DNA of 53,672 nucleotides from Shigella phage vB_Shi_2KOFFS, in sequence record PV615261; one strand, given 5' to 3'. Numbering within the stretch: the first letter of the stretch is position 1; each line of letters opens with the position of its first letter. The position numbers were made by a program, and so were the translations under genes. Positions 1 through 53,672 of this stretch are shown here, in pieces. Under the pieces are notes generated by a model, which was not told the origin of the DNA, ran no database searches, and saw nothing but the letters and a program-made list of their open reading frames with translations.

Positions 1-236
1 TTACCAAGCCCAGCCCGTTCGCAGACAATTGTTAATATCTGCATAACGGCTCTGGGCTATTTTAATAGCCGCAACACTGGAGTCCTTATGGATTTTGATG
101 CACTTGATAACTTAGACTTCGGTGCTGCCGAAGAAGCAATTGAAGAACTTAAGAAGAAGCAGGACGAAGAAGCAATCGTTCCTGGTGCTGGCGATAACGA
201 CTGCTCAAGTGGTGCGTGCGCCATCTAAGGACGTAT

Positions 237-12643: not shown

Positions 12644-14662
12644 ATGTCAAAGACTGATGACCTCGGACCGGAGTTTAATGATACAGTAGCCTCGTATCTT
12701 GCCAAGCACTACGGTGACGTATTAAAAGTCTCAAGAGAAAGATTCTGTATTCTATCTTTGCCATTGCTCCGTCGATATATTTCAGAAAATACTGCAATAG
12801 TTGACAGCTATGAAGAACAAATTCAAGCAGAGTTAGAAGGCCAGGGTCTTGAAAACGATGCTGTATTGCGTTCCGTTTTCAGAGCACAACTTGAGCGTCT
12901 TCGCTCTGGCGACAAGAAAGACTCGACTGCCTATGCAGATGAGTTGAAGAAAGGTATTCAAGCAGGTGTTACTGACCGTGTTGCAGGTTCCACATTAGAG
13001 GAGCCAAACTCGGAGCATGATAACACCGACGAACTTGTAGACAAGATTCTGCATGACCCACACAATGTGGACCCAACTGTAATCCCTGCCAAGGTTGCAG
13101 AACGTGTTCGCAAAATCTTGATGAAAAGTTTCGAAGCCTTTGGTAAATGGCAGTTCCATATTCAGATGGGATTTCCATTTCAAGCACAGGACTTTCACGA
13201 TGTAATATTCAGTGTTGGTCAAAAGGTTGTTGATGGCGAGATTGACCGCTTAATAGTGACCATTCCTCCACGACACTCTAAGACTCAGCTCATGAGTATT
13301 GCATTGCCCTTGTATTCATTTTGCCACAATGAATCAAGCCATAACATTATCACTTCGTATGCAGAAGACGTTGTTCTTGAATCGAGTGGTTACATCCGTG
13401 CTGTAATGATGGACCCACTGTTCCAACGCATATTCCCGAAGGTGAGAATCGACCCCAACAAACGTTCTCTTGAACGCTGGGGTACAACCAAAGCTGGAGT
13501 TATGCACGCAGTGCCTACTGGTGGTAAGCTAACTGGTAAAGGTGCTGGACTTCTTGTTGCAAAATACTCCGGCTGTTTCGTGGTGGATGACGTTATCAAG
13601 CCGAAAGATGCCTACTCTGACACAGTTCGAGCAGAAATCAACGACCGATTTGATAACACCTTCATGTCACGTCTCGCCAACGATGGTTGCATAACTGATT
13701 CGTACGGAAACCAAATTAAGTGTGCCCGTACACCAATGGTTATCATCATGCAGCGAGTTCATGACCAGGATTTAGTTGGTTATATACTCCGTGGTGGCTC
13801 TTCTGATAAATACCATTATCTCAATATCCCAGCGATTATTGAGAAAGGTGTCGGAAGTGCTGAATGGTATGATAAGTTAATCAAGAAGCAGAACTACACT
13901 CATGCTATTCCCATTCTGTATAATTTGAACAGGAAGGAAGAGAAGTCTGCATTATGGCCTTCACGTAAGAGCTTAGAATCTCTGGAGGCAATGAAAGAGT
14001 CTAACCCATACACATACAATTCACAGTATGCTGGCGACCCATCTGCACAAGGCCATGGCCTTATCAAAGAAGATTGGTGGCAAGAGTATGAGCCAGACGT
14101 TTTCGACAGAAGTCGCATAGTCAGAAGTTTTATTACAGCGGATACGGCATCAACTGCCAAATCCTATTCTGATTATTCGGTCCTTAAGCATTGGGGCGTG
14201 ACTAAAGAGCGTGACGTTTATTGTTTAGATATTATGCTCGGTAAGTTTGAAACTCCAGAACTCAAGACTGCTATCATCGACTTCTGGAACAAATGCAACA
14301 AGTTGGACTTGAAATGCGTAGGTTGTATTCCTCGTGCATTGTACATGGAAGACAAGTCTGCCGGACAATTCTTGAACCAACAATTTATCAGAGATGGGAG
14401 TGTCCGAGTTTTACCATTGCCTCGTGATGGGATTAATGGTAATGACAAGGTAACTCGATTCCTTAACGCAATCCCATATTTCTCGCAAAAGAGAATATTC
14501 TTCCCTGCTGGTCATGAACACATTGACCACGTTAGACGTGAAATACTTGGATTCACTTCTTTGGGTAGTGGTACTGGACACGACGATTGTGTCGATAACG
14601 TTTCAGATATGGTTGCAATCGAATTCTCAGGCCCAAGTGCCAACTACTCCGCATGGATGTAA
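12644..14662 (+). CDS. terminase large subunit
   Basis: Deviant Walker A IPPRHSKTQ, Walker B-like CFVVDDVIKP, C-terminal acidic nuclease-like region; position before portal. Confidence 0.8.
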   Translation: MSKTDDLGPEFNDTVASYLAKHYGDVLKVSRERFCILSLPLLRRYISENTAIVDSYEEQIQAELEGQGLENDAVLRSVFRAQLERLRSGDKKDSTAYADELKKGIQAGVTDRVAGSTLEEPNSEHDNTDELVDKILHDPHNVDPTVIPAKVAERVRKILMKSFEAFGKWQFHIQMGFPFQAQDFHDVIFSVGQKVVDGEIDRLIVTIPPRHSKTQLMSIALPLYSFCHNESSHNIITSYAEDVVLESSGYIRAVMMDPLFQRIFPKVRIDPNKRSLERWGTTKAGVMHAVPTGGKLTGKGAGLLVAKYSGCFVVDDVIKPKDAYSDTVRAEINDRFDNTFMSRLANDGCITDSYGNQIKCARTPMVIIMQRVHDQDLVGYILRGGSSDKYHYLNIPAIIEKGVGSAEWYDKLIKKQNYTHAIPILYNLNRKEEKSALWPSRKSLESLEAMKESNPYTYNSQYAGDPSAQGHGLIKEDWWQEYEPDVFDRSRIVRSFITADTASTAKSYSDYSVLKHWGVTKERDVYCLDIMLGKFETPELKTAIIDFWNKCNKLDLKCVGCIPRALYMEDKSAGQFLNQQFIRDGSVRVLPLPRDGINGNDKVTRFLNAIPYFSQKRIFFPAGHEHIDHVRREILGFTSLGSGTGHDDCVDNVSDMVAIEFSGPSANYSAWM

Positions 14663-49943: not shown

Positions 49944-50172
49944 CTTAAATATCAACTCAATAAAGCCAGAAGATATTCTCTTCCACCAGCCTCGTGGACA
50001 CTACTATCGAATTCTGTTTGCTACAAAAATTAAAACCCACTGCGGCAATTGGGTAGATGGGTTTGCTTACCAGGAAGTTAAGAAGTATGGAAATCATACT
50101 TTCTTGGGAATTAATTCGATAATTTATACAAGACCGAAGGAACTGTTTGATTCAGATTGGAAAGCAGTATAG
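49936..50172 (+). CDS. hypothetical protein (78 aa)
   Basis: ATG overlapping upstream gene end. Confidence 0.45.
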   Translation: MSDLNINSIKPEDILFHQPRGHYYRILFATKIKTHCGNWVDGFAYQEVKKYGNHTFLGINSIIYTRPKELFDSDWKAV

Positions 50173-50240
50173 TTCCAGGCTGTTCCGTCGAAGTGCCAAG
50201 CGGGTTTTGTACTCGCATTGGCCTTCGGCTTAATTCTGGG

Positions 50241-50258
50241 ACATTAGTAGAATTTGAT
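50241..50258 (+). promoter_or_regulatory. conserved promoter-like motif copy (degenerate)
   Basis: ACATTAGTaGaATTTGAt, preceded by TTAATTCTG shared with copy at 50381. Confidence 0.35.
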
Positions 50259-50380
50259 TCTGACCTCTTAGGGAAGAACTGCATTATACATCTATCGCCA
50301 AATGGGTGTCAAGCACTTTCTTAATTTATTTTATTTATTCTTATTATTCGTGCGGTTTGGAATAATGGAATAATTCTGAA

Positions 50381-50398
50381 ACATTAATTGGAATTGAC
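50381..50398 (+). promoter_or_regulatory. conserved promoter-like motif copy
   Basis: ACATTAaTTGGAaTTGAc, preceded by TTCTGAAACATTA as at 52345; 10 nt upstream of the structured element. Confidence 0.4.
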
Positions 50399-50408
50399 AA
50401 CATCAGAT

Positions 50409-50486
50409 AAGAGCTTTGTAACTAGGTAGTCCGTCTGGTACCAAGACGTGTGAGAACGTTCGATTCGTTCTACAAAGCTCTTTTCG
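50409..50486 (+). ncRNA. candidate small structured RNA with tRNA-like T-arm and acceptor-like stem, ending in a U-tract
   Basis: 12-bp closing stem 50409-50420/50471-50482; internal hairpins 50432-50448 (5-bp stem, 7-nt loop) and 50454-50470 GAACG-TTCGATT-CGTTC (canonical T-arm shape); no D-arm; followed by CTTTTC. Confidence 0.35.
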
Positions 50487-51031
50487 ATGGAATGTTTCCA
50501 TCATATACATTTATCTTTTAACATAGGCCAAAAGGCCGGAATACTTATTCGCAGAAAAGCTATTCACTTGTTATAGGCGATGTATTGGGATGAATTGGAA
50601 CTAAATAAGCAAGCTGTTAGGGCTGAATAATTAGAGGGTTATGCCTCATGCTTATGTTAGTCGTTCGAAAATAGGTTTGTGCCACAAGCTGCTGGTGCTC
50701 TGAGGAAGTCGGACAAACAGGGCTTAGAGTGGCATAATCCTCACAAAACCGCGCCACCAGCTATGCCAAAGCAGGTAGGTTGGGTGAATGTATTGGGAAG
50801 GGTTACAAAGCCTCTGTGACCTCCGTAGCTTGCCAGGCTGCGGTGCAGTTATGATACGCAGGTCGCACCCTAACGGGAGTAACCCTTCGCCAATGCAGTC
50901 ATCCAGAATTGACACAAACGGTAGGCAGTGGCCCGATTTTCGGCCTTCCTGCGCTGCCCTGTGGCCTGTTTCATGGGCCAAAAGATGAGAAGAGAAGTCA
51001 CAAACACTGAATCGAAAATTGGAGAGTTCCT

Positions 51032-51352
51032 ATGATTCGCAAGCATTCTGCTAAAGTTTTGACATTAAGAAATGTACTAATGTCTTCGCCAAGTGGGGAA
51101 GAGGAGGAAGAAACAATCCACTTCGTTCTCGTTGGCGGGCGTTGGTATTACAACGGGACCAATAACTTCACCGTAGGAATTTCGGAGAAAGATGGGTTCT
51201 GGAAGCACACTTTCAAAGACATACTCGAATGTAGTGCTAAATACACCCTTGCAGAAGTTAAGAAATATTTCTACTGCGGCCCAAACAAGTCCATGCAAAT
51301 CGCAACTCGCAATTGGACAACAAACCAACCAGTTTACGGAGTTCCATTTTGA
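51032..51352 (+). CDS. hypothetical protein (106 aa)
   Basis: ATG after GGAGAG. Confidence 0.5.
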   Translation: MIRKHSAKVLTLRNVLMSSPSGEEEEETIHFVLVGGRWYYNGTNNFTVGISEKDGFWKHTFKDILECSAKYTLAEVKKYFYCGPNKSMQIATRNWTTNQPVYGVPF

Positions 51353-52777: not shown

Positions 52778-53672
52778 GTTGCCGATGGCAAACTTGAGAG
52801 ACTAGGCTAAATCGATCTGGCGTGCACTGGAAGTTTTCCGGTGCTGCCTTGAACCCATTCCAGAGTGAGTGGGCTTCAATGAGCATTCTTGTGATTAGAG
52901 TTGGGAGGTAGGCCGATGCCCAAGCTCATGGCCCAGACAAGAGTGTTCATTGAAGTAGTTTTCTGAGTCTTACGACGGGCCTAAACTGCCTGGAGTTATT
53001 GCGACTGTTTTATTCATTTAAAATAAATGCAAATGATTCTGAAATGCGAGTTGCGGCTTAATTAAATTTAAGTCCTCTCCGTGGTCTTCCAATCCCACGT
53101 AACCAAATTTGGCGCATTGTGGCTTCGAGATGTGATTAATAAATCGGAGCATTAATTAATTTGTATTCTGCGATGCAAAGCAGGCTTAAGTCCTCCAGTG
53201 CGCGTGGGGATGTGACAGAGTACAAACTTAATTATGCAGTTGGATATTTCTAGAGGACGGACGAGCACACTGGAATGTCTTCAATTGGTTTAGTGTGAGA
53301 AGCTATGCCAATTTGAAACGTAACTCCTTGAGGAAGTGCTCCTCTGGACTTCCCTCCACACAGGAATCTCAAGCCTGTGGCAGCGACTTCGAAGCTGCAC
53401 TGCGTAACCTAATTCACCCTAAAGTGAGTTGCCCTGAGCATGGAAATAAACTGCTCATAACCGATGGTATCTACAAAGGTAGATTAAATCAGGTTGCCTG
53501 TTGGTACTTGGGTTCAACACCTGCTTGCACTCGCAAAGTAGTGCCTCGTACCTGAGATGAAGTGAGTCGGGACCATCAATCCCACGTTATGTCAAAACAC
53601 AGTAGGCGACTCACAGATTCTACAAGCCTCGCAGTTCGGGAAAACCTGCGTTATCAAAACCCCCCCCCCACC

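What the first reader, a model, noticed from the sequence alone, without database searches (positions are those of the whole stretch)
50381..50486. Compact promoter / tRNA-like hairpin / U-tract unit in an 860-bp gene-free spacer
A copy of the conserved promoter-like motif (50381-50398) is followed 10 nt later by a perfect 12-bp stem (50409-50420 with 50471-50482) enclosing two hairpins. One is GAACG-TTCGATT-CGTTC, which has the exact shape and loop sequence of a tRNA T-arm; the other is an anticodon-arm-like 5-bp stem with a 7-nt loop GGTACCA. The 3' strand runs into CTTTTC. The spacing fits an acceptor/anticodon/variable/T-arm layout but there is no D-arm, so it is not a canonical tRNA. It could be a small RNA that mimics tRNA, for example as an RNase P or tRNA-enzyme substrate or decoy.
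Basis: seen in the sequence. Interest (0 to 1): 0.65.

Follow-up and report, generated by a model that had tools for sequence, protein, structure and literature searches.

The report
Swappable tRNA-like cap on phage leader RNA
The hairpin is a real, evolutionarily conserved tRNA-shaped RNA fold lacking the D stem, but it is not a tRNA or a stand-alone small-RNA gene: it is an exchangeable module at the 5' end of a roughly 640-base, highly conserved, undescribed structured non-coding RNA in phiEcoM-GJ1-like (Chaseviridae) phages.

Summary
The 12-bp stem, the T-arm (GAACG-UUCGAUU-CGUUC) and the 5-bp/7-nt arm sit at the stated coordinates. Covariation in 13 relatives supports the fold: 95% of cells paired against 35-50% when slid, and 11 pairs changed on both sides.

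The window is a Carltongylesvirus (Chaseviridae) genome. The upstream motif is the putative phage-RNA-polymerase promoter annotated in phiEcoM-GJ1 and SA91KD.

The interpretation needs revision:
- **Not a tRNA.** It has no D stem, U33, CCA or G3:U70, and ARAGORN and Rfam are negative.
- **Not a terminator-bounded unit.** The U-tract is absent in relatives.
- **The tRNA elbow is kept.** The T-loop and a GGUAG D-loop remnant survive across five strongly diverged versions.
- **It is one of several cassettes.** Others are a pseudoknot-like module, unrelated hairpins and a 28-nt minimal hairpin. All sit between invariant flanks (ACAACAUC ... GAUGGAAUGUUUCCAUC) and all close with a long stem.

Downstream lies about 550 nt of non-coding sequence, more conserved than the flanking genes. 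It is + strand specific, supported by covariation, and has no Rfam match.

Most likely role (inferred): a tRNA-derived module that processes or protects the 5' end of this long leader RNA.

Seen in passing: a second conserved non-coding region carries a cryptic tmRNA-like tag frame (ANDSEMRVAA*).

The parts
50381..50398 (+). Putative phage (T7-type single-subunit) RNA-polymerase promoter, corresponding to 'promoter 5' of phiEcoM-GJ1. This is a deviant copy: one core mismatch, and 5 nt missing before ACAACATC.
   Evidence: Motif enrichment, + strand only. Annotated promoters in SA91KD and GJ1. Alignment.
50401..50489 (+). The whole closed module. The basal pairs CAUC/GAUG plus GA/UC plus the 12-bp stem give about 18 bp with one bulge and one U:U mismatch. 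This encloses the tRNA-like three-way junction.
   Evidence: Covariance model R1 scores 111 bits and finds a single copy in the window.
50409..50420 (+). 5' strand of the perfect 12-bp stem. Its inner 7 nt, CUUUGUA, occupy the acceptor-stem position.
   Evidence: Six of 17 outer-helix pairs changed on both sides. 4HA13 has a 20-bp perfect helix of a different sequence.
50421..50431 (+). Linker ACUAGGUAGUC, a D-loop remnant (GGUAG matching G18 G19 U20 A21 G22) without a D stem.
   Evidence: GGTAG is invariant in classes A, B, 4HA13 and BSBP01. It is absent from cassettes that lack a T-arm.
50432..50448 (+). Arm in the anticodon-arm position: a 5-bp stem with loop GGUACCA, which is a 6-nt palindrome plus A.
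   Evidence: The stem covaries at 2 pairs. The apex stays self-complementary through double changes: GGUACC, CGGCCG, GCGGCCGC, GGCGCC, GUGCAC. GGTACC occurs once in the window.
50449..50453 (+). 5-nt variable-region equivalent, UGUGA.
50454..50470 (+). Canonical T-arm GAACG-UUCGAUU-CGUUC, abutting the 3' strand of the closing stem.
   Evidence: It is the only canonical T-arm in the whole window. The same 17-mer occurs in genuine phage tRNAs. It covaries: GAAUG/CAUUC, GAAGG/CCUUC, ACAGG/CCUGU.
50471..50482 (+). 3' strand of the 12-bp stem. The 'U-tract' is part of this pairing strand and of the next 2 bp.
   Evidence: No terminator is called.
50486..50502 (+). Invariant hairpin GAUGGAA-UGU-UUCCAUC. 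Its GAUG can alternatively close the module by pairing with CAUC at 50401-50404.
   Evidence: Invariant even in Aeromonas phage phiA050, apart from one G:U change.
50503..51031 (+). The rest of the structured, non-coding leader RNA, forming about 8 hairpin domains. The core at 50580-50760 is 95-98% conserved. The hypervariable stem apices lie at 50820-50866 and 50925-50960.
   Evidence: Conservation profile. RNAalifold gives 178 pairs, 33 of them compensated. z = -4.2. Strand asymmetry and G:U versus A:C counts. No Rfam hit.
50601..50673 (+). Core helix ACUAAAUAAGCA/UGCUUAUGUUAGU, with two internal hairpins and the invariant single-stranded GGGCUGAAUAAUUAGAG.
   Evidence: Nine of 12 pairs changed on both sides across the window, TH26/GJ1, phiA050, L061, 4HA13 and Faunus. 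88% of cells pair against about 40% when slid.
51009..51038 (+). Hairpin GAAUC...GAUUC that sequesters the Shine-Dalgarno sequence (GGAGAG) and the AUG of the downstream gene.
   Evidence: RNAalifold pairs at columns 668-699 and 681-690. ORF at 51032.
50241..50258 (+). Upstream second promoter-like copy ('promoter 4'), preceded by a terminator-like hairpin at about 50175-50225 and followed by an AT-rich stretch at 50300-50345.
   Evidence: SA91KD and GJ1 annotations mapped onto the window.

Best explanation
The element is a tRNA-derived RNA module. It has an acceptor-like helix stacked on a canonical T-arm, a D-loop remnant that can still form the tRNA elbow, and a short arm in the anticodon position.

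It forms the exchangeable apical part of a conserved, promoter-proximal long hairpin. That hairpin is the first domain of a roughly 640-nt structured non-coding leader RNA (50400-51031). The RNA is transcribed on the + strand, probably by the phage's T7-type RNA polymerase.

It does not decode and is not a separate gene.

Its most likely job is to define and protect the 5' end. The 18-25-bp closing helix and the tRNA-like elbow make a compact substrate or recognition site for host RNA-processing enzymes: RNase III on the long helix and/or RNase P on the acceptor/T stack. Processing there would trim the triphosphate leader and leave a stable structured end on the long RNA. It may also release the tRNA-like piece.

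What is shown: the fold, its conservation, its strand, its modular replacement and its position in a long structured RNA. What is inferred: transcription from this promoter, the enzymes involved, and the consequence of processing.
For: **Fold and covariation.**

**The tRNA elbow is preserved.** Five versions (window type, SA91KD type, 4HA13, BSBP01, MLP1) are so diverged that BLAST loses them. All keep UUCGANN with G53-C61, and four keep GGUAG, while the stems change by compensation.

**The layout follows tRNA spacing.** ARAGORN in mitochondrial mode reads one variant (TH24) as a 71-nt mtRNA-Gly with anticodon GCC taken from this loop.

**All cassette types share a closing helix.** The tRNA-like form, module X in phiA050, Faunus/Pel53, L061 and the 28-nt minimal hairpin in four metagenome contigs all have a long closing helix of about 11-24 bp between the invariant flanks. 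This points to a function that mainly needs a stable closed structure at this spot.

**Position.** The module starts 3-10 nt after the promoter motif in all close relatives.

**It is embedded in a long conserved RNA.**
- The non-coding core is more conserved than the flanking genes.
- It carries 1-nt indels.
- RNAalifold and the distant-homologue alignment show covariation.
- Both controls give about 40% of cells paired against 88% observed.
- The + strand folds better: alifold -161 against -122 kcal/mol, with 364 G:U against 20 A:C cells.
- z = -4.2.

**A parallel at the second non-coding region.** Its 3' end carries an odd 93-95-nt tRNA with CCA in ST32, GJ1 and PYps16N. In the window, a plain hairpin followed by AUUUU stands there instead. 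So tRNA-like modules and simple hairpins are interchangeable at the ends of long non-coding regions in these phages.
Against: - No transcript data exist. ICTV states that Chaseviridae promoters are not yet identified.
- The window's own promoter copy is deviant.
- RNase P normally wants a single-stranded 3' RCCA and a 7-bp acceptor end. Here the helix continues for at least 5 more bp and there is no CCA.
- In BSBP01 the helix below the T-arm is only 4 bp before an internal loop, so no constant 12-bp ruler is kept.
- Other phage promoters in the window are not followed by such stems, so this is not a general promoter/RNase III arrangement.
- If only a stable hairpin were needed, the strict conservation of the T-loop and GGUAG would be unexplained. 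An additional elbow-specific partner is therefore likely but unidentified.
- Natural phages with a 28-nt hairpin show that the tRNA-like part is dispensable.
Confidence: 0.42

Rival explanations
1. A free tRNA mimic or decoy. The module is excised and accumulates as a small RNA of about 60-90 nt. Its elbow and acceptor/T stack titrate or recruit a tRNA-binding factor. Candidates are RNase P, TruB/TrmA, EF-Tu, SmpB or a tRNA-targeting defence nuclease. Cassette diversity would then reflect host-specific arms races.
For: - Selection acts on exactly the elbow nucleotides across diverged cassettes.
- The cassette is hypervariable inside invariant flanks: 76% identity against 95-98% for the neighbouring core.
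- The D-stem-less design resembles the tRNA-like domain of tmRNA. The phage also carries a cryptic tmRNA-like tag frame.
- A tRNA-like-domain-only tmRNA form from mycobacteriophage DS6A is reported to inhibit host tmRNA (PMC11915505).
- D. radiodurans Y RNA Yrn1 has the same arrangement: a long terminal stem, D-loop features without a full D arm, a 5-bp anticodon-like arm and a T-arm (PMC4201824).
Against: - No terminator or defined 3' end.
- No CCA and no G3:U70 (U3-A70).
- The anticodon-position loop has no conserved identity.
- The Ro-binding motif GNCGAAN0-1G is absent by inspection, and there is no Rfam YrlA or tmRNA hit at E up to 10.
- The module is absent from several natural relatives.
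Confidence: 0.2
2. A neutral relic. A tRNA gene was once inserted into the apical loop of a pre-existing functional hairpin and is decaying. Only the closing helix matters, as an RNase III site or 5' stabiliser, and the tRNA-like features have no function.
For: - tRNA genes come and go in these phages (PMC8762354).
- Cassettes without any T-arm, including a 28-nt hairpin, occupy the same site.
- The D stem, U33 and CCA are lost.
- Palindromic apices could arise through template-switch 'quasipalindrome correction' rather than selection. This is established knowledge and was not tested here.
Against: - Between cassette classes most positions have changed, yet UUCGA, G53-C61 and GGUAG are retained and the stems are repaired by compensatory changes. 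That is not expected for a decaying pseudogene.
- No donor tRNA could be identified beyond generic features.
Confidence: 0.18
3. A DNA-level element, namely the phage replication origin. Two tandem phage promoters, an AT-rich block and hairpin-forming DNA would resemble the T7 primary origin (phi1.1A/B plus an AT-rich region). The hairpins would act in DNA or as primer RNA.
For: - Two promoter copies at 50241 and 50381 flank an AT-rich stretch at 50300-50345.
- The region is gene-free and conserved.
- The apex holds perfect palindromes.
Against: - Pairing tolerates G:U far more than A:C (364 against 20), and the + strand folds much better than the - strand. That points to selection on a + strand RNA, not on duplex DNA or cruciforms.
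- The palindrome sequence is not conserved, so it is not a fixed protein site.
Confidence: 0.08
4. An intrinsic terminator or attenuator directly behind the promoter. It would make a short abortive transcript or regulate read-through, using the alternative pairing of GAUG with either CAUC copy.
For: - The stem is followed by UUUUC in the window.
- There is mutually exclusive pairing of GAUG (50486-50489) with CAUC 50401-50404 or within the hairpin 50486-50502.
- A conserved UAUCUUUU lies at about 50511-50518. From memory, it loosely recalls the T7 class II pause signal ATCTGTT.
Against: - The U-tract is not conserved.
- The scan finds no terminator there.
- A branched three-way junction is not a terminator hairpin.
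- The strongly conserved structured RNA continues downstream.
Confidence: 0.06

Closest known systems
tRNA-like domain of tmRNA, including the CDS-less form of mycobacteriophage DS6A that consists of the tRNA-like domain only
   Same: It has an acceptor helix stacked on a canonical T-arm and a D-loop without a D stem, with another helix emerging where the anticodon stem would be. It is phage-encoded. The same genome also carries a tmRNA-like tag frame (PMC11915505).
   Different: It has no G3:U70 (U3-A70) and no ACCA end, and the helix continues past position 1/72. Neither ARAGORN nor the Rfam tmRNA models detect it. It lies 2.5 kb from the tag frame.
Bacterial Y RNAs (D. radiodurans Yrn1; YrlA)
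   Same: They have a long stem formed by the 5' and 3' ends that encloses a tRNA-like module with a T-arm. In Yrn1 there are D-loop features without a full D arm and a 5-bp anticodon-like arm (PMC4201824). Y RNAs also occur in phages.
   Different: No Ro60/Rsr gene is nearby and there is no GNCGAAN0-1G Ro-binding motif (inspection). No Rfam match was found. It is part of a 640-nt RNA rather than a roughly 100-nt RNA.
RNase III processing hairpins of T7-like phages (R sites just downstream of late promoters; from memory, Dunn and Studier 1983)
   Same: The phage has a T7-type RNA polymerase. An irregular stem of about 18-25 bp lies immediately after a phage promoter and before genes. The apex is variable.
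   Different: T7 sites are simple hairpins with an internal loop, not three-way junctions with a T-arm. Only this one promoter in the window is followed by such a stem. Cleavage is untested.
tRNA-like end-forming elements (MALAT1/mascRNA; RNase P substrates such as the P1/P7 C4 RNA precursor; tRNA punctuation). From memory.
   Same: A tRNA-shaped fold embedded in a longer transcript may serve as a processing signal rather than as an adaptor.
   Different: Those elements have a free acceptor end at the cleavage site. Here the acceptor-like helix is extended, and there is no 3' CCA-like tail.
D-armless mitochondrial tRNAs (for example mt-tRNA-Ser(AGY))
   Same: The same cloverleaf without the D stem. 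ARAGORN in mitochondrial mode calls variant TH24 as mtRNA-Gly(GCC).
   Different: The anticodon loop is not conserved in length or sequence and has no U33 (G in the window). There is no acceptor end. It occurs in a bacterial virus and the calls across variants are inconsistent.
Large structured phage-associated ncRNAs (GOLLD, ROOL)
   Same: The surrounding roughly 640-nt RNA is large, highly structured, phage-encoded and associated with tRNA-like elements. Self-complementary loops suggest possible self-association. This comparison is from memory.
   Different: There is no sequence or structure match to any Rfam family, including GOLLD and ROOL. The RNA doubles as the 5' leader of an mRNA.

Membership tests
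Canonical tRNA | D arm with a 3-4-bp stem | tested here: not met
   An 11-nt unpaired linker ACUAGGUAGUC lies between the acceptor-like stem and the next arm.
Canonical tRNA | T-arm: a 5-bp stem with a 7-nt UUCRANY loop and G53-C61 | tested here: met
   GAACG-UUCGAUU-CGUUC. It is kept, with compensatory stem changes, in five cassette classes.
Canonical tRNA | A 7-nt anticodon loop with U33 and a purine at 37, and a conserved anticodon | tested here: not met
   The loop is GGUACCA, with G at position 33. Relatives have CGGCCGA, a 4-nt GGCC loop, or a 9-nt loop.
Canonical tRNA | A 7-bp acceptor stem ending in a discriminator and a free 3' (CCA) end | tested here: not met
   The helix continues for at least 5 more bp. 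The 3' side reads ...UACAAAG-CUCUUUUCGAUG, with no CCA.
Canonical tRNA | Detected by tRNA finders | tested here: not met
   ARAGORN finds nothing in the window or in 24 relatives' loci. Rfam RF00005 gives nothing even at E up to 10. Relaxed or mitochondrial modes give inconsistent calls.
tmRNA tRNA-like domain | G3:U70 alanine identity pair and a 3' ACCA | tested here: not met
   Counted from the T-arm, position 3-70 is U-A. There is no ACCA.
tmRNA tRNA-like domain | T-arm plus a D-loop without a D stem | tested here: met
tmRNA tRNA-like domain | Linked to a tag reading frame in the same RNA | tested here: not met
   The only tag-like frame is at 53029-53061, 2.5 kb downstream and beyond four protein-coding genes.
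Y RNA (YrlA/Yrn1) | Encoded next to a Ro60/Rsr (TROVE) gene | tested here: not met
   The seven neighbouring ORFs have no Pfam hit. PHROGs gives only an anti-restriction family and families of unknown function. The rest of the genome was not scanned.
Y RNA (YrlA/Yrn1) | Ro-binding helix with GNCGAAN0-1G | tested here: not met
   The motif is absent from 50381-50520 by inspection. No Rfam Y RNA hit at E up to 10.
Intrinsic (rho-independent) terminator | A GC-rich unbranched hairpin directly followed by a conserved U-run | tested here: not met
   The scan finds none at 50400-50520. The structure is branched. The U-run is absent in 4HA13, BSBP01 and phiA050.
RNase III processing site (T7 type) | Irregular dsRNA helix of about two turns | tested here: met
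   The window has 18 bp plus a stacked 5-bp T stem. 4HA13 has 20 perfect bp. MLP1 has about 21 bp and BSBP01 has 13+4 bp. The minimal cassettes are shorter, at about 11 bp.
RNase III processing site (T7 type) | Cleaved by RNase III | not testable with these tools
   Needs an rnc mutant or an in vitro assay.
RNase P substrate | Coaxial acceptor/T-stem stack of 12 bp with a T-loop | tested here: met
   A 5-bp T stem directly abuts the closing helix.
RNase P substrate | Single-stranded 3' RCCA and cleavage at -1/+1 | tested here: not met
   There is no RCCA, and position -1/+73 is base-paired. Cleavage itself is not testable here.
Any Rfam 15 family | Covariance-model match | tested here: not met
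   There are no gathering-level hits in the window. Only noise appears at E up to 10 over 50100-51100. Nothing is found at E up to 1 in 10 relatives' loci.

The most novel reading that the evidence does not exclude
The roughly 640-nt leader may be a new class of large phage non-coding RNA. Its 5' domain would be a hypervariable, swappable 'adaptor' slot. In this phage the slot holds a tRNA mimic of the tmRNA tRNA-like-domain type, which would engage an elbow-binding host factor such as SmpB, RNase P or the ribosome.

Its palindromic apical loop would dimerise the RNA by kissing, and it would work together with the phage's cryptic tmRNA-like gene to manipulate ribosome rescue or tRNA-directed host defences.
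Probability: 0.12. Interest if true: 0.88.

Novelty: new variant of a known kind. Interest (0 to 1): 0.62.

Why it matters
Chaseviridae are used as biocontrol and therapy phages, yet their transcription signals and non-coding content are essentially undescribed.

- **Gene-free spacers may be conserved structured RNAs.** This analysis indicates that two of the long 'gene-free spacers' are conserved non-coding regions. One is shown here to be a covariation-supported RNA, more constrained than the neighbouring genes, and several genome records wrongly fill it with tiny ORFs.
- **A natural experiment.** The tRNA-like module is one slot filled by at least six different structures. Five of them preserve a tRNA elbow. 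That makes the question of what a tRNA elbow is for, outside translation, directly testable in an E. coli phage by cassette swaps.
- **A practical warning.** Standard tools (ARAGORN, Rfam gathering thresholds) miss the non-canonical tRNA-like and tmRNA-like genes of this phage family.

Tried and rejected
- **Canonical or relaxed tRNA detection.** ARAGORN default, -ps80 and mitochondrial modes, and Rfam, gave nothing or inconsistent calls.
- **Finding the donor tRNA.** Alignment to the phage tRNAs that share the identical T-arm 17-mer shows no similarity beyond the T-arm and the generic GGUAG.
- **Further copies in the genome.** Model R1 finds only this one. The 18-bit hit at 52875-52955 is a different long hairpin that merely shares stem sequence with 4HA13's cassette.
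- **A pairing partner for the palindromic loop elsewhere in the genome.** GGTACC is unique in the window, so only self-pairing is possible.
- **Host origin.** The 651-nt region has no blastn match in 5,426 E. coli genomes.
- **Protein-coding explanation for the spacer.** ORFs are short and inconsistent between records, and are broken by indels. GJ1's 'SbcC-like' ORF sits in a 584-bp replacement segment that is absent here.
- **Neighbouring genes as RNA-binding partners.** No informative Pfam or PHROGs hits.
- **Collection scans for more variants.** IMG/VR added mainly known isolates. It also gave L061, a distant relative with a simple hairpin at the cassette site. The metagenome scan was mostly chance 17-mer hits but yielded the minimal-hairpin variant.
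- **Literature.** No paper found describes this RNA. One search was wasted on badly chosen terms. Jamalludeen 2008 is not held.
- **A tRNA-like domain for the tmRNA-like region.** ARAGORN's -ps80 assignment is unconvincing: there is no canonical T-loop, and a 12-nt gap lies before the acceptor strand.
Full report
**What the window is.** The 1.2 kb around the finding matches about 50 phage records at 84-91% identity. [quoted passage not shown] The window's length (53,672 nt) and its colinearity with SA91KD (53,673 nt) suggest it is a whole genome in a rotated frame.

**Checking the observation.**
- The 12-bp perfect stem is 50409-50420/50471-50482.
- The 5-bp/7-nt hairpin CGUCU-GGUACCA-AGACG is at 50432-50448.
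- The 5-nt spacer UGUGA follows.
- The hairpin GAACG-UUCGAUU-CGUUC is at 50454-50470 and abuts the 3' strand of the stem.
- An 11-nt unpaired linker stands in place of a D arm.

RNAfold gives this fold with z = -3.5. The helix extends downward (GA/UC and CAUC/GAUG) to about 18 bp with one bulge and one U:U.

The upstream motif is a copy of a repeated + strand motif, ACATTAGTTGGA. It occurs 16 times with up to 2 mismatches against about 6 expected, and never on the - strand. The phiEcoM-GJ1 and SA91KD records annotate the same sites as putative phage promoters. ICTV still regards Chaseviridae promoters as unidentified.

**Homologues and covariation.** I extracted the unit from 24 phage loci and several metagenomic contigs. 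Thirteen distinct colinear versions were aligned (A1).
- 95.4% of cells form standard pairs, against 35-50% when partners are slid.
- Eleven of 30 pairs carry changes on both sides.
- No shuffle out of 500 reaches the observed covariation score.

Examples: AAGAGC/GCUCUU becomes AAUAAC/GUUAUU. GAACG/CGUUC becomes GAAUG/CAUUC. CGUCU/AGACG becomes CGUUA/UAACG. In 4HA13 (Sabourvirus) the closing helix is a perfect 20 bp of largely different sequence.

The fold is therefore real and under selection. Wobble pairs are tolerated while A:C is not, and the + strand folds much better than the - strand. This points to an RNA read from the + strand rather than a DNA structure.

**Why it is tRNA-like but not a tRNA.** The order and spacing match a cloverleaf that has lost only its D stem:
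- a 7-bp acceptor position;
- 2 nt;
- a D-loop remnant;
- a 5-bp arm;
- a 5-nt variable region;
- a 5-bp T stem with a 7-nt UUCGAUU loop and a G-C closing pair;
- the acceptor 3' strand.

ARAGORN in mitochondrial mode reads variant TH24 as a 71-nt mtRNA-Gly(GCC), taking its anticodon from this loop. The T-arm 17-mer is identical to that of genuine phage tRNAs (Phe, Arg, Gln and others). It is the only canonical T-arm in the entire window. GGUAG corresponds to G18 G19 U20 A21 G22 of a D-loop.

Several defining tRNA features were tested and failed:
- There is no D stem.
- The loop has G rather than U at position 33. Its length and sequence are not conserved (7, 4 or 9 nt).
- The helix runs on past position 1/72.
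- There is no CCA and no G3:U70.
- ARAGORN and Rfam are negative in the window and in all relatives.

**The module is one of several cassettes.** The flanks ACAACAUC and (A)GAUGGAAUGUUUCCAUCA are invariant. Between them, different phages carry different inserts:
1. the window type;
2. the SA91KD/ST32 type;
3. the 4HA13 type;
4. the BSBP01 type, with outer stem UUGAAGUUCCUUC/GAGGGAACUUCAA, UGGGUAG, arm CCCU-GUGCACA-AGGG and T-arm GAAGG-UUCGAGU-CCUUC;
5. the MLP1 type, with a 16-bp outer stem, hairpin GUGUAG-AAAU-CUACAC and T-arm ACAGG-UUCGAUG-CCUGU;
6. an unrelated insert without a T-arm in Faunus and Pel53;
7. a pseudoknot-like 'module X' in Aeromonas phage phiA050. The same module sits between duplicated promoters in SA91KD, ST32 and DE15;
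8. a simple long hairpin in IMG/VR contig L061;
9. a 28-nt minimal hairpin in four metagenomic contigs.

All close with a long helix. Versions 1-5 have diverged so far that BLAST loses them. Even so, all keep UUCGA and the G-C closing pair, and four keep GGUAG. This is what selection on a tRNA elbow (the T-loop/D-loop interaction) predicts, and not what a decaying pseudogene predicts. On the other hand, the tRNA-like part is clearly dispensable in nature.

**The U-tract and the 'unit'.** The UUUU after the stem pairs with AGAUAA on the 5' side. It is replaced by CUUCAAG or CCCACAG in relatives. No terminator is scored there. The unit is therefore not a promoter-to-terminator small-RNA gene.

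**What it is part of.** The 859-bp spacer has no conserved ORF. From 50500 to the AUG at 51032 the sequence is more conserved than the flanking genes: 95-98% against 72-89%. Two hypervariable islands behave like stem apices.
- RNAalifold predicts about 8 hairpin domains, with 178 pairs of which 33 are compensated.
- The single-sequence z-score is -4.2.
- I aligned one core helix (50601-50673) across distant relatives: TH26/GJ1, phiA050, L061, 4HA13 and Faunus. Nine of its 12 pairs changed on both sides, and 88% of cells pair against about 40% when slid.
- The last hairpin sequesters the Shine-Dalgarno sequence and the AUG of the next gene.
- Nothing in Rfam 15 matches, in the window or in ten relatives.
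- No E. coli genome contains it.
- No paper I could find mentions it.

**Most likely mechanism (inferred).** Three observations point to an end-defining or end-protecting module:
- the position directly behind the promoter;
- a closing helix of about 11-24 bp in every cassette type;
- the interchangeability of tRNA-like modules with plain hairpins.

The long helix is the kind of substrate RNase III cuts in T7-like phages. The acceptor/T stack with an intact elbow is what RNase P recognises. Either would convert the triphosphate 5' leader into a processed, structured end.

A parallel exists at the second non-coding region. Its 3' end carries an odd 93-95-nt tRNA with CCA in ST32, GJ1 and PYps16N. 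In the window that position is occupied by a hairpin followed by AUUUU.

I put about 0.4 on this explanation. Its weak points are:
- there are no transcript data;
- there is no free RCCA end for RNase P;
- no constant 12-bp ruler is kept, as BSBP01 shows;
- elbow conservation calls for a specific partner that I cannot name.

**Rival explanations.**
- A released tRNA mimic or decoy (0.2).
- A neutral tRNA relic in a functional hairpin (0.18).
- A DNA-level origin resembling the T7 primary origin (0.08, disfavoured by the strand and wobble asymmetry).
- A terminator or attenuator (0.06).

**An unexplained detail.** The apex of the middle arm is always self-complementary: GGUACC, CGGCCG, GCGGCCGC, GGCGCC, GUGCAC. 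It changes by paired substitutions that include the two central bases, which cannot pair within one hairpin. GGTACC occurs only once in the 53.7-kb genome. Two explanations are open: selection for loop-loop (kissing) self-association, or template-switch correction of quasipalindromes during replication.

**Comparison with known systems.** In architecture, the closest are:
- the tRNA-like domain of tmRNA (T-arm, D-loop without a stem);
- D. radiodurans Y RNA Yrn1 (long terminal stem, partial D-loop, 5-bp anticodon-like arm, T-arm);
- D-armless mitochondrial tRNAs;
- T7 RNase III sites;
- tRNA-like processing signals such as mascRNA.

Each membership test fails on at least one defining feature that I could check (see the table). 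I therefore file it as a new variant of the known kind 'tRNA-like structural module in a viral RNA', not as a member of any of these families.

**Noticed in passing.** The second non-coding region (52778-53672) is conserved in 80 phage records across Escherichia, Yersinia, Erwinia, Klebsiella, Pantoea, Pectobacterium and Aeromonas phages. It contains a tmRNA-like tag frame, AAUAAAU-GCA AAU GAU UCU GAA AUG CGA GUU GCG GCU UAA, which reads ANDSEMRVAA*.
- Rfam tmRNA_permuted scores only 20.5 bits.
- ARAGORN finds it only at the relaxed -ps80 setting and calls it a permuted tmRNA.
- The frame is kept with synonymous and conservative changes in PYps16N. In Faunus it reads ANDSEMRMVA*, and in contig L061 it reads ANDNYALAAA*.
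- I could not find a convincing tRNA-like domain for it.
- Faunus also has four canonical T-arms downstream of its tag. Only one lies in something that Rfam accepts as a tRNA.

This phage family appears rich in non-canonical tRNA-like and tmRNA-like RNAs that standard annotation misses.

Noticed in passing
window 53029-53061 (within non-coding region 52778-53672): There is a cryptic tmRNA-like tag reading frame, ANDSEMRVAA*. It is preceded by AAUAAAU, and its stop codon lies in a helix-5-like hairpin. It is sub-threshold for Rfam tmRNA_permuted (20.5 bits) and is called by ARAGORN only at -ps80. The frame is conserved in PYps16N, flopper and Mangalitsa. In Faunus it reads ANDSEMRMVA*, and in IMG/VR contig L061 it reads ANDNYALAAA*. 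No convincing tRNA-like domain was found.
   Followed up: partly
window 52778-53672: This is a second long conserved non-coding region. It matches 80 phage records, including Erwinia, Klebsiella, Pantoea, Pectobacterium and Aeromonas phages, and is 95-99% identical in close relatives. It ends at the window's end in AAAACCCCCCCCCCACC.
   Followed up: partly
window 52875-52955: A 19-bp long-stem hairpin, CUUCAAUGAGCAUUCUUGU.../...ACAAGAGUGUUCAUUGAAG (z = -4.5), has an apex that again contains GGUAG. Its stem sequence resembles the outer stem of 4HA13's tRNA-like cassette, which suggests recombination between the two elements.
   Followed up: partly
window 52852-52873: The hairpin CCCAUUC-CAGAGU-GAGUGGG would give a 7-bp acceptor-like stem with a G3:U70 wobble. 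It is conserved in Faunus with a different loop (CUAAUUG), which is the arrangement expected for a permuted tmRNA acceptor stem. However, there is no encoded CCA and no adjacent T-arm.
   Followed up: partly
window 8-66; L060 (PYps16N) 13088-13180: ST32, GJ1 and PYps16N carry an odd 93-95-nt 'tRNA-Arg/Leu' with CCA. It has a 24-nt D-loop insertion, scores 41.5 bits on the Rfam tRNA model, and is missed by ARAGORN. At the same position the window has the hairpin AGCCCAGCC...GGCUCUGGGCU followed by AUUUU. This is another swappable end module.
   Followed up: partly
L055 (Erwinia phage Faunus) 11779-12532: Four canonical T-arms lie downstream of the tag frame, two of them followed by 7 nt plus N plus CCA. 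Only one reaches the Rfam tRNA threshold (31.1 bits) and ARAGORN calls none. This looks like an array of non-canonical tRNA-like elements.
   Followed up: partly
L001 (SA91KD) ~2005-2123; L062 (phiA050) ~1252-1348: 'Module X' (GGAGUCCACUGCA...UGCAGCC...CAAGUYUGGACARCUUG, with GUCCA/UGGAC pseudoknot potential) fills the cassette slot in the Aeromonas phage. It also fills the roughly 140-bp insert between duplicated promoters in SA91KD, ST32 and DE15. It has no Rfam match.
   Followed up: partly
window 50437-50442: GGTACC occurs only once in the 53.7-kb genome, against roughly 13 expected for a random hexamer. The single copy is in the apical loop of the middle arm. Relatives carry other GC-rich palindromes at the same spot.
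   Followed up: partly
window 50623-50891 versus L027 (phiEcoM-GJ1) 1460-2044: phiEcoM-GJ1 replaces 268 nt of the structured leader with an unrelated 584 bp that carries the ORF annotated 'putative exonuclease SbcC'. TH26 and GJ1 also carry a swapped version of the core hairpin, with five compensated pairs.
   Followed up: partly
window 50381-50404: The spacing between the promoter core and ACAACATC varies among relatives by 0, -3 or -5 nt. The window has the -5 form (ATTG-----ACAACATC), so the presumed start site differs from the consensus GAAGAAAC.
   Followed up: no
L025, L028, L030, L041, L046 (spacer annotations in other records): Several GenBank records (Ecp_YSF, PYps16N, PYps3T, Mangalitsa, BSBP01) annotate 30-70-aa 'hypothetical proteins' across this non-coding RNA. 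They do not correspond between records and are probably over-calls.
   Followed up: partly
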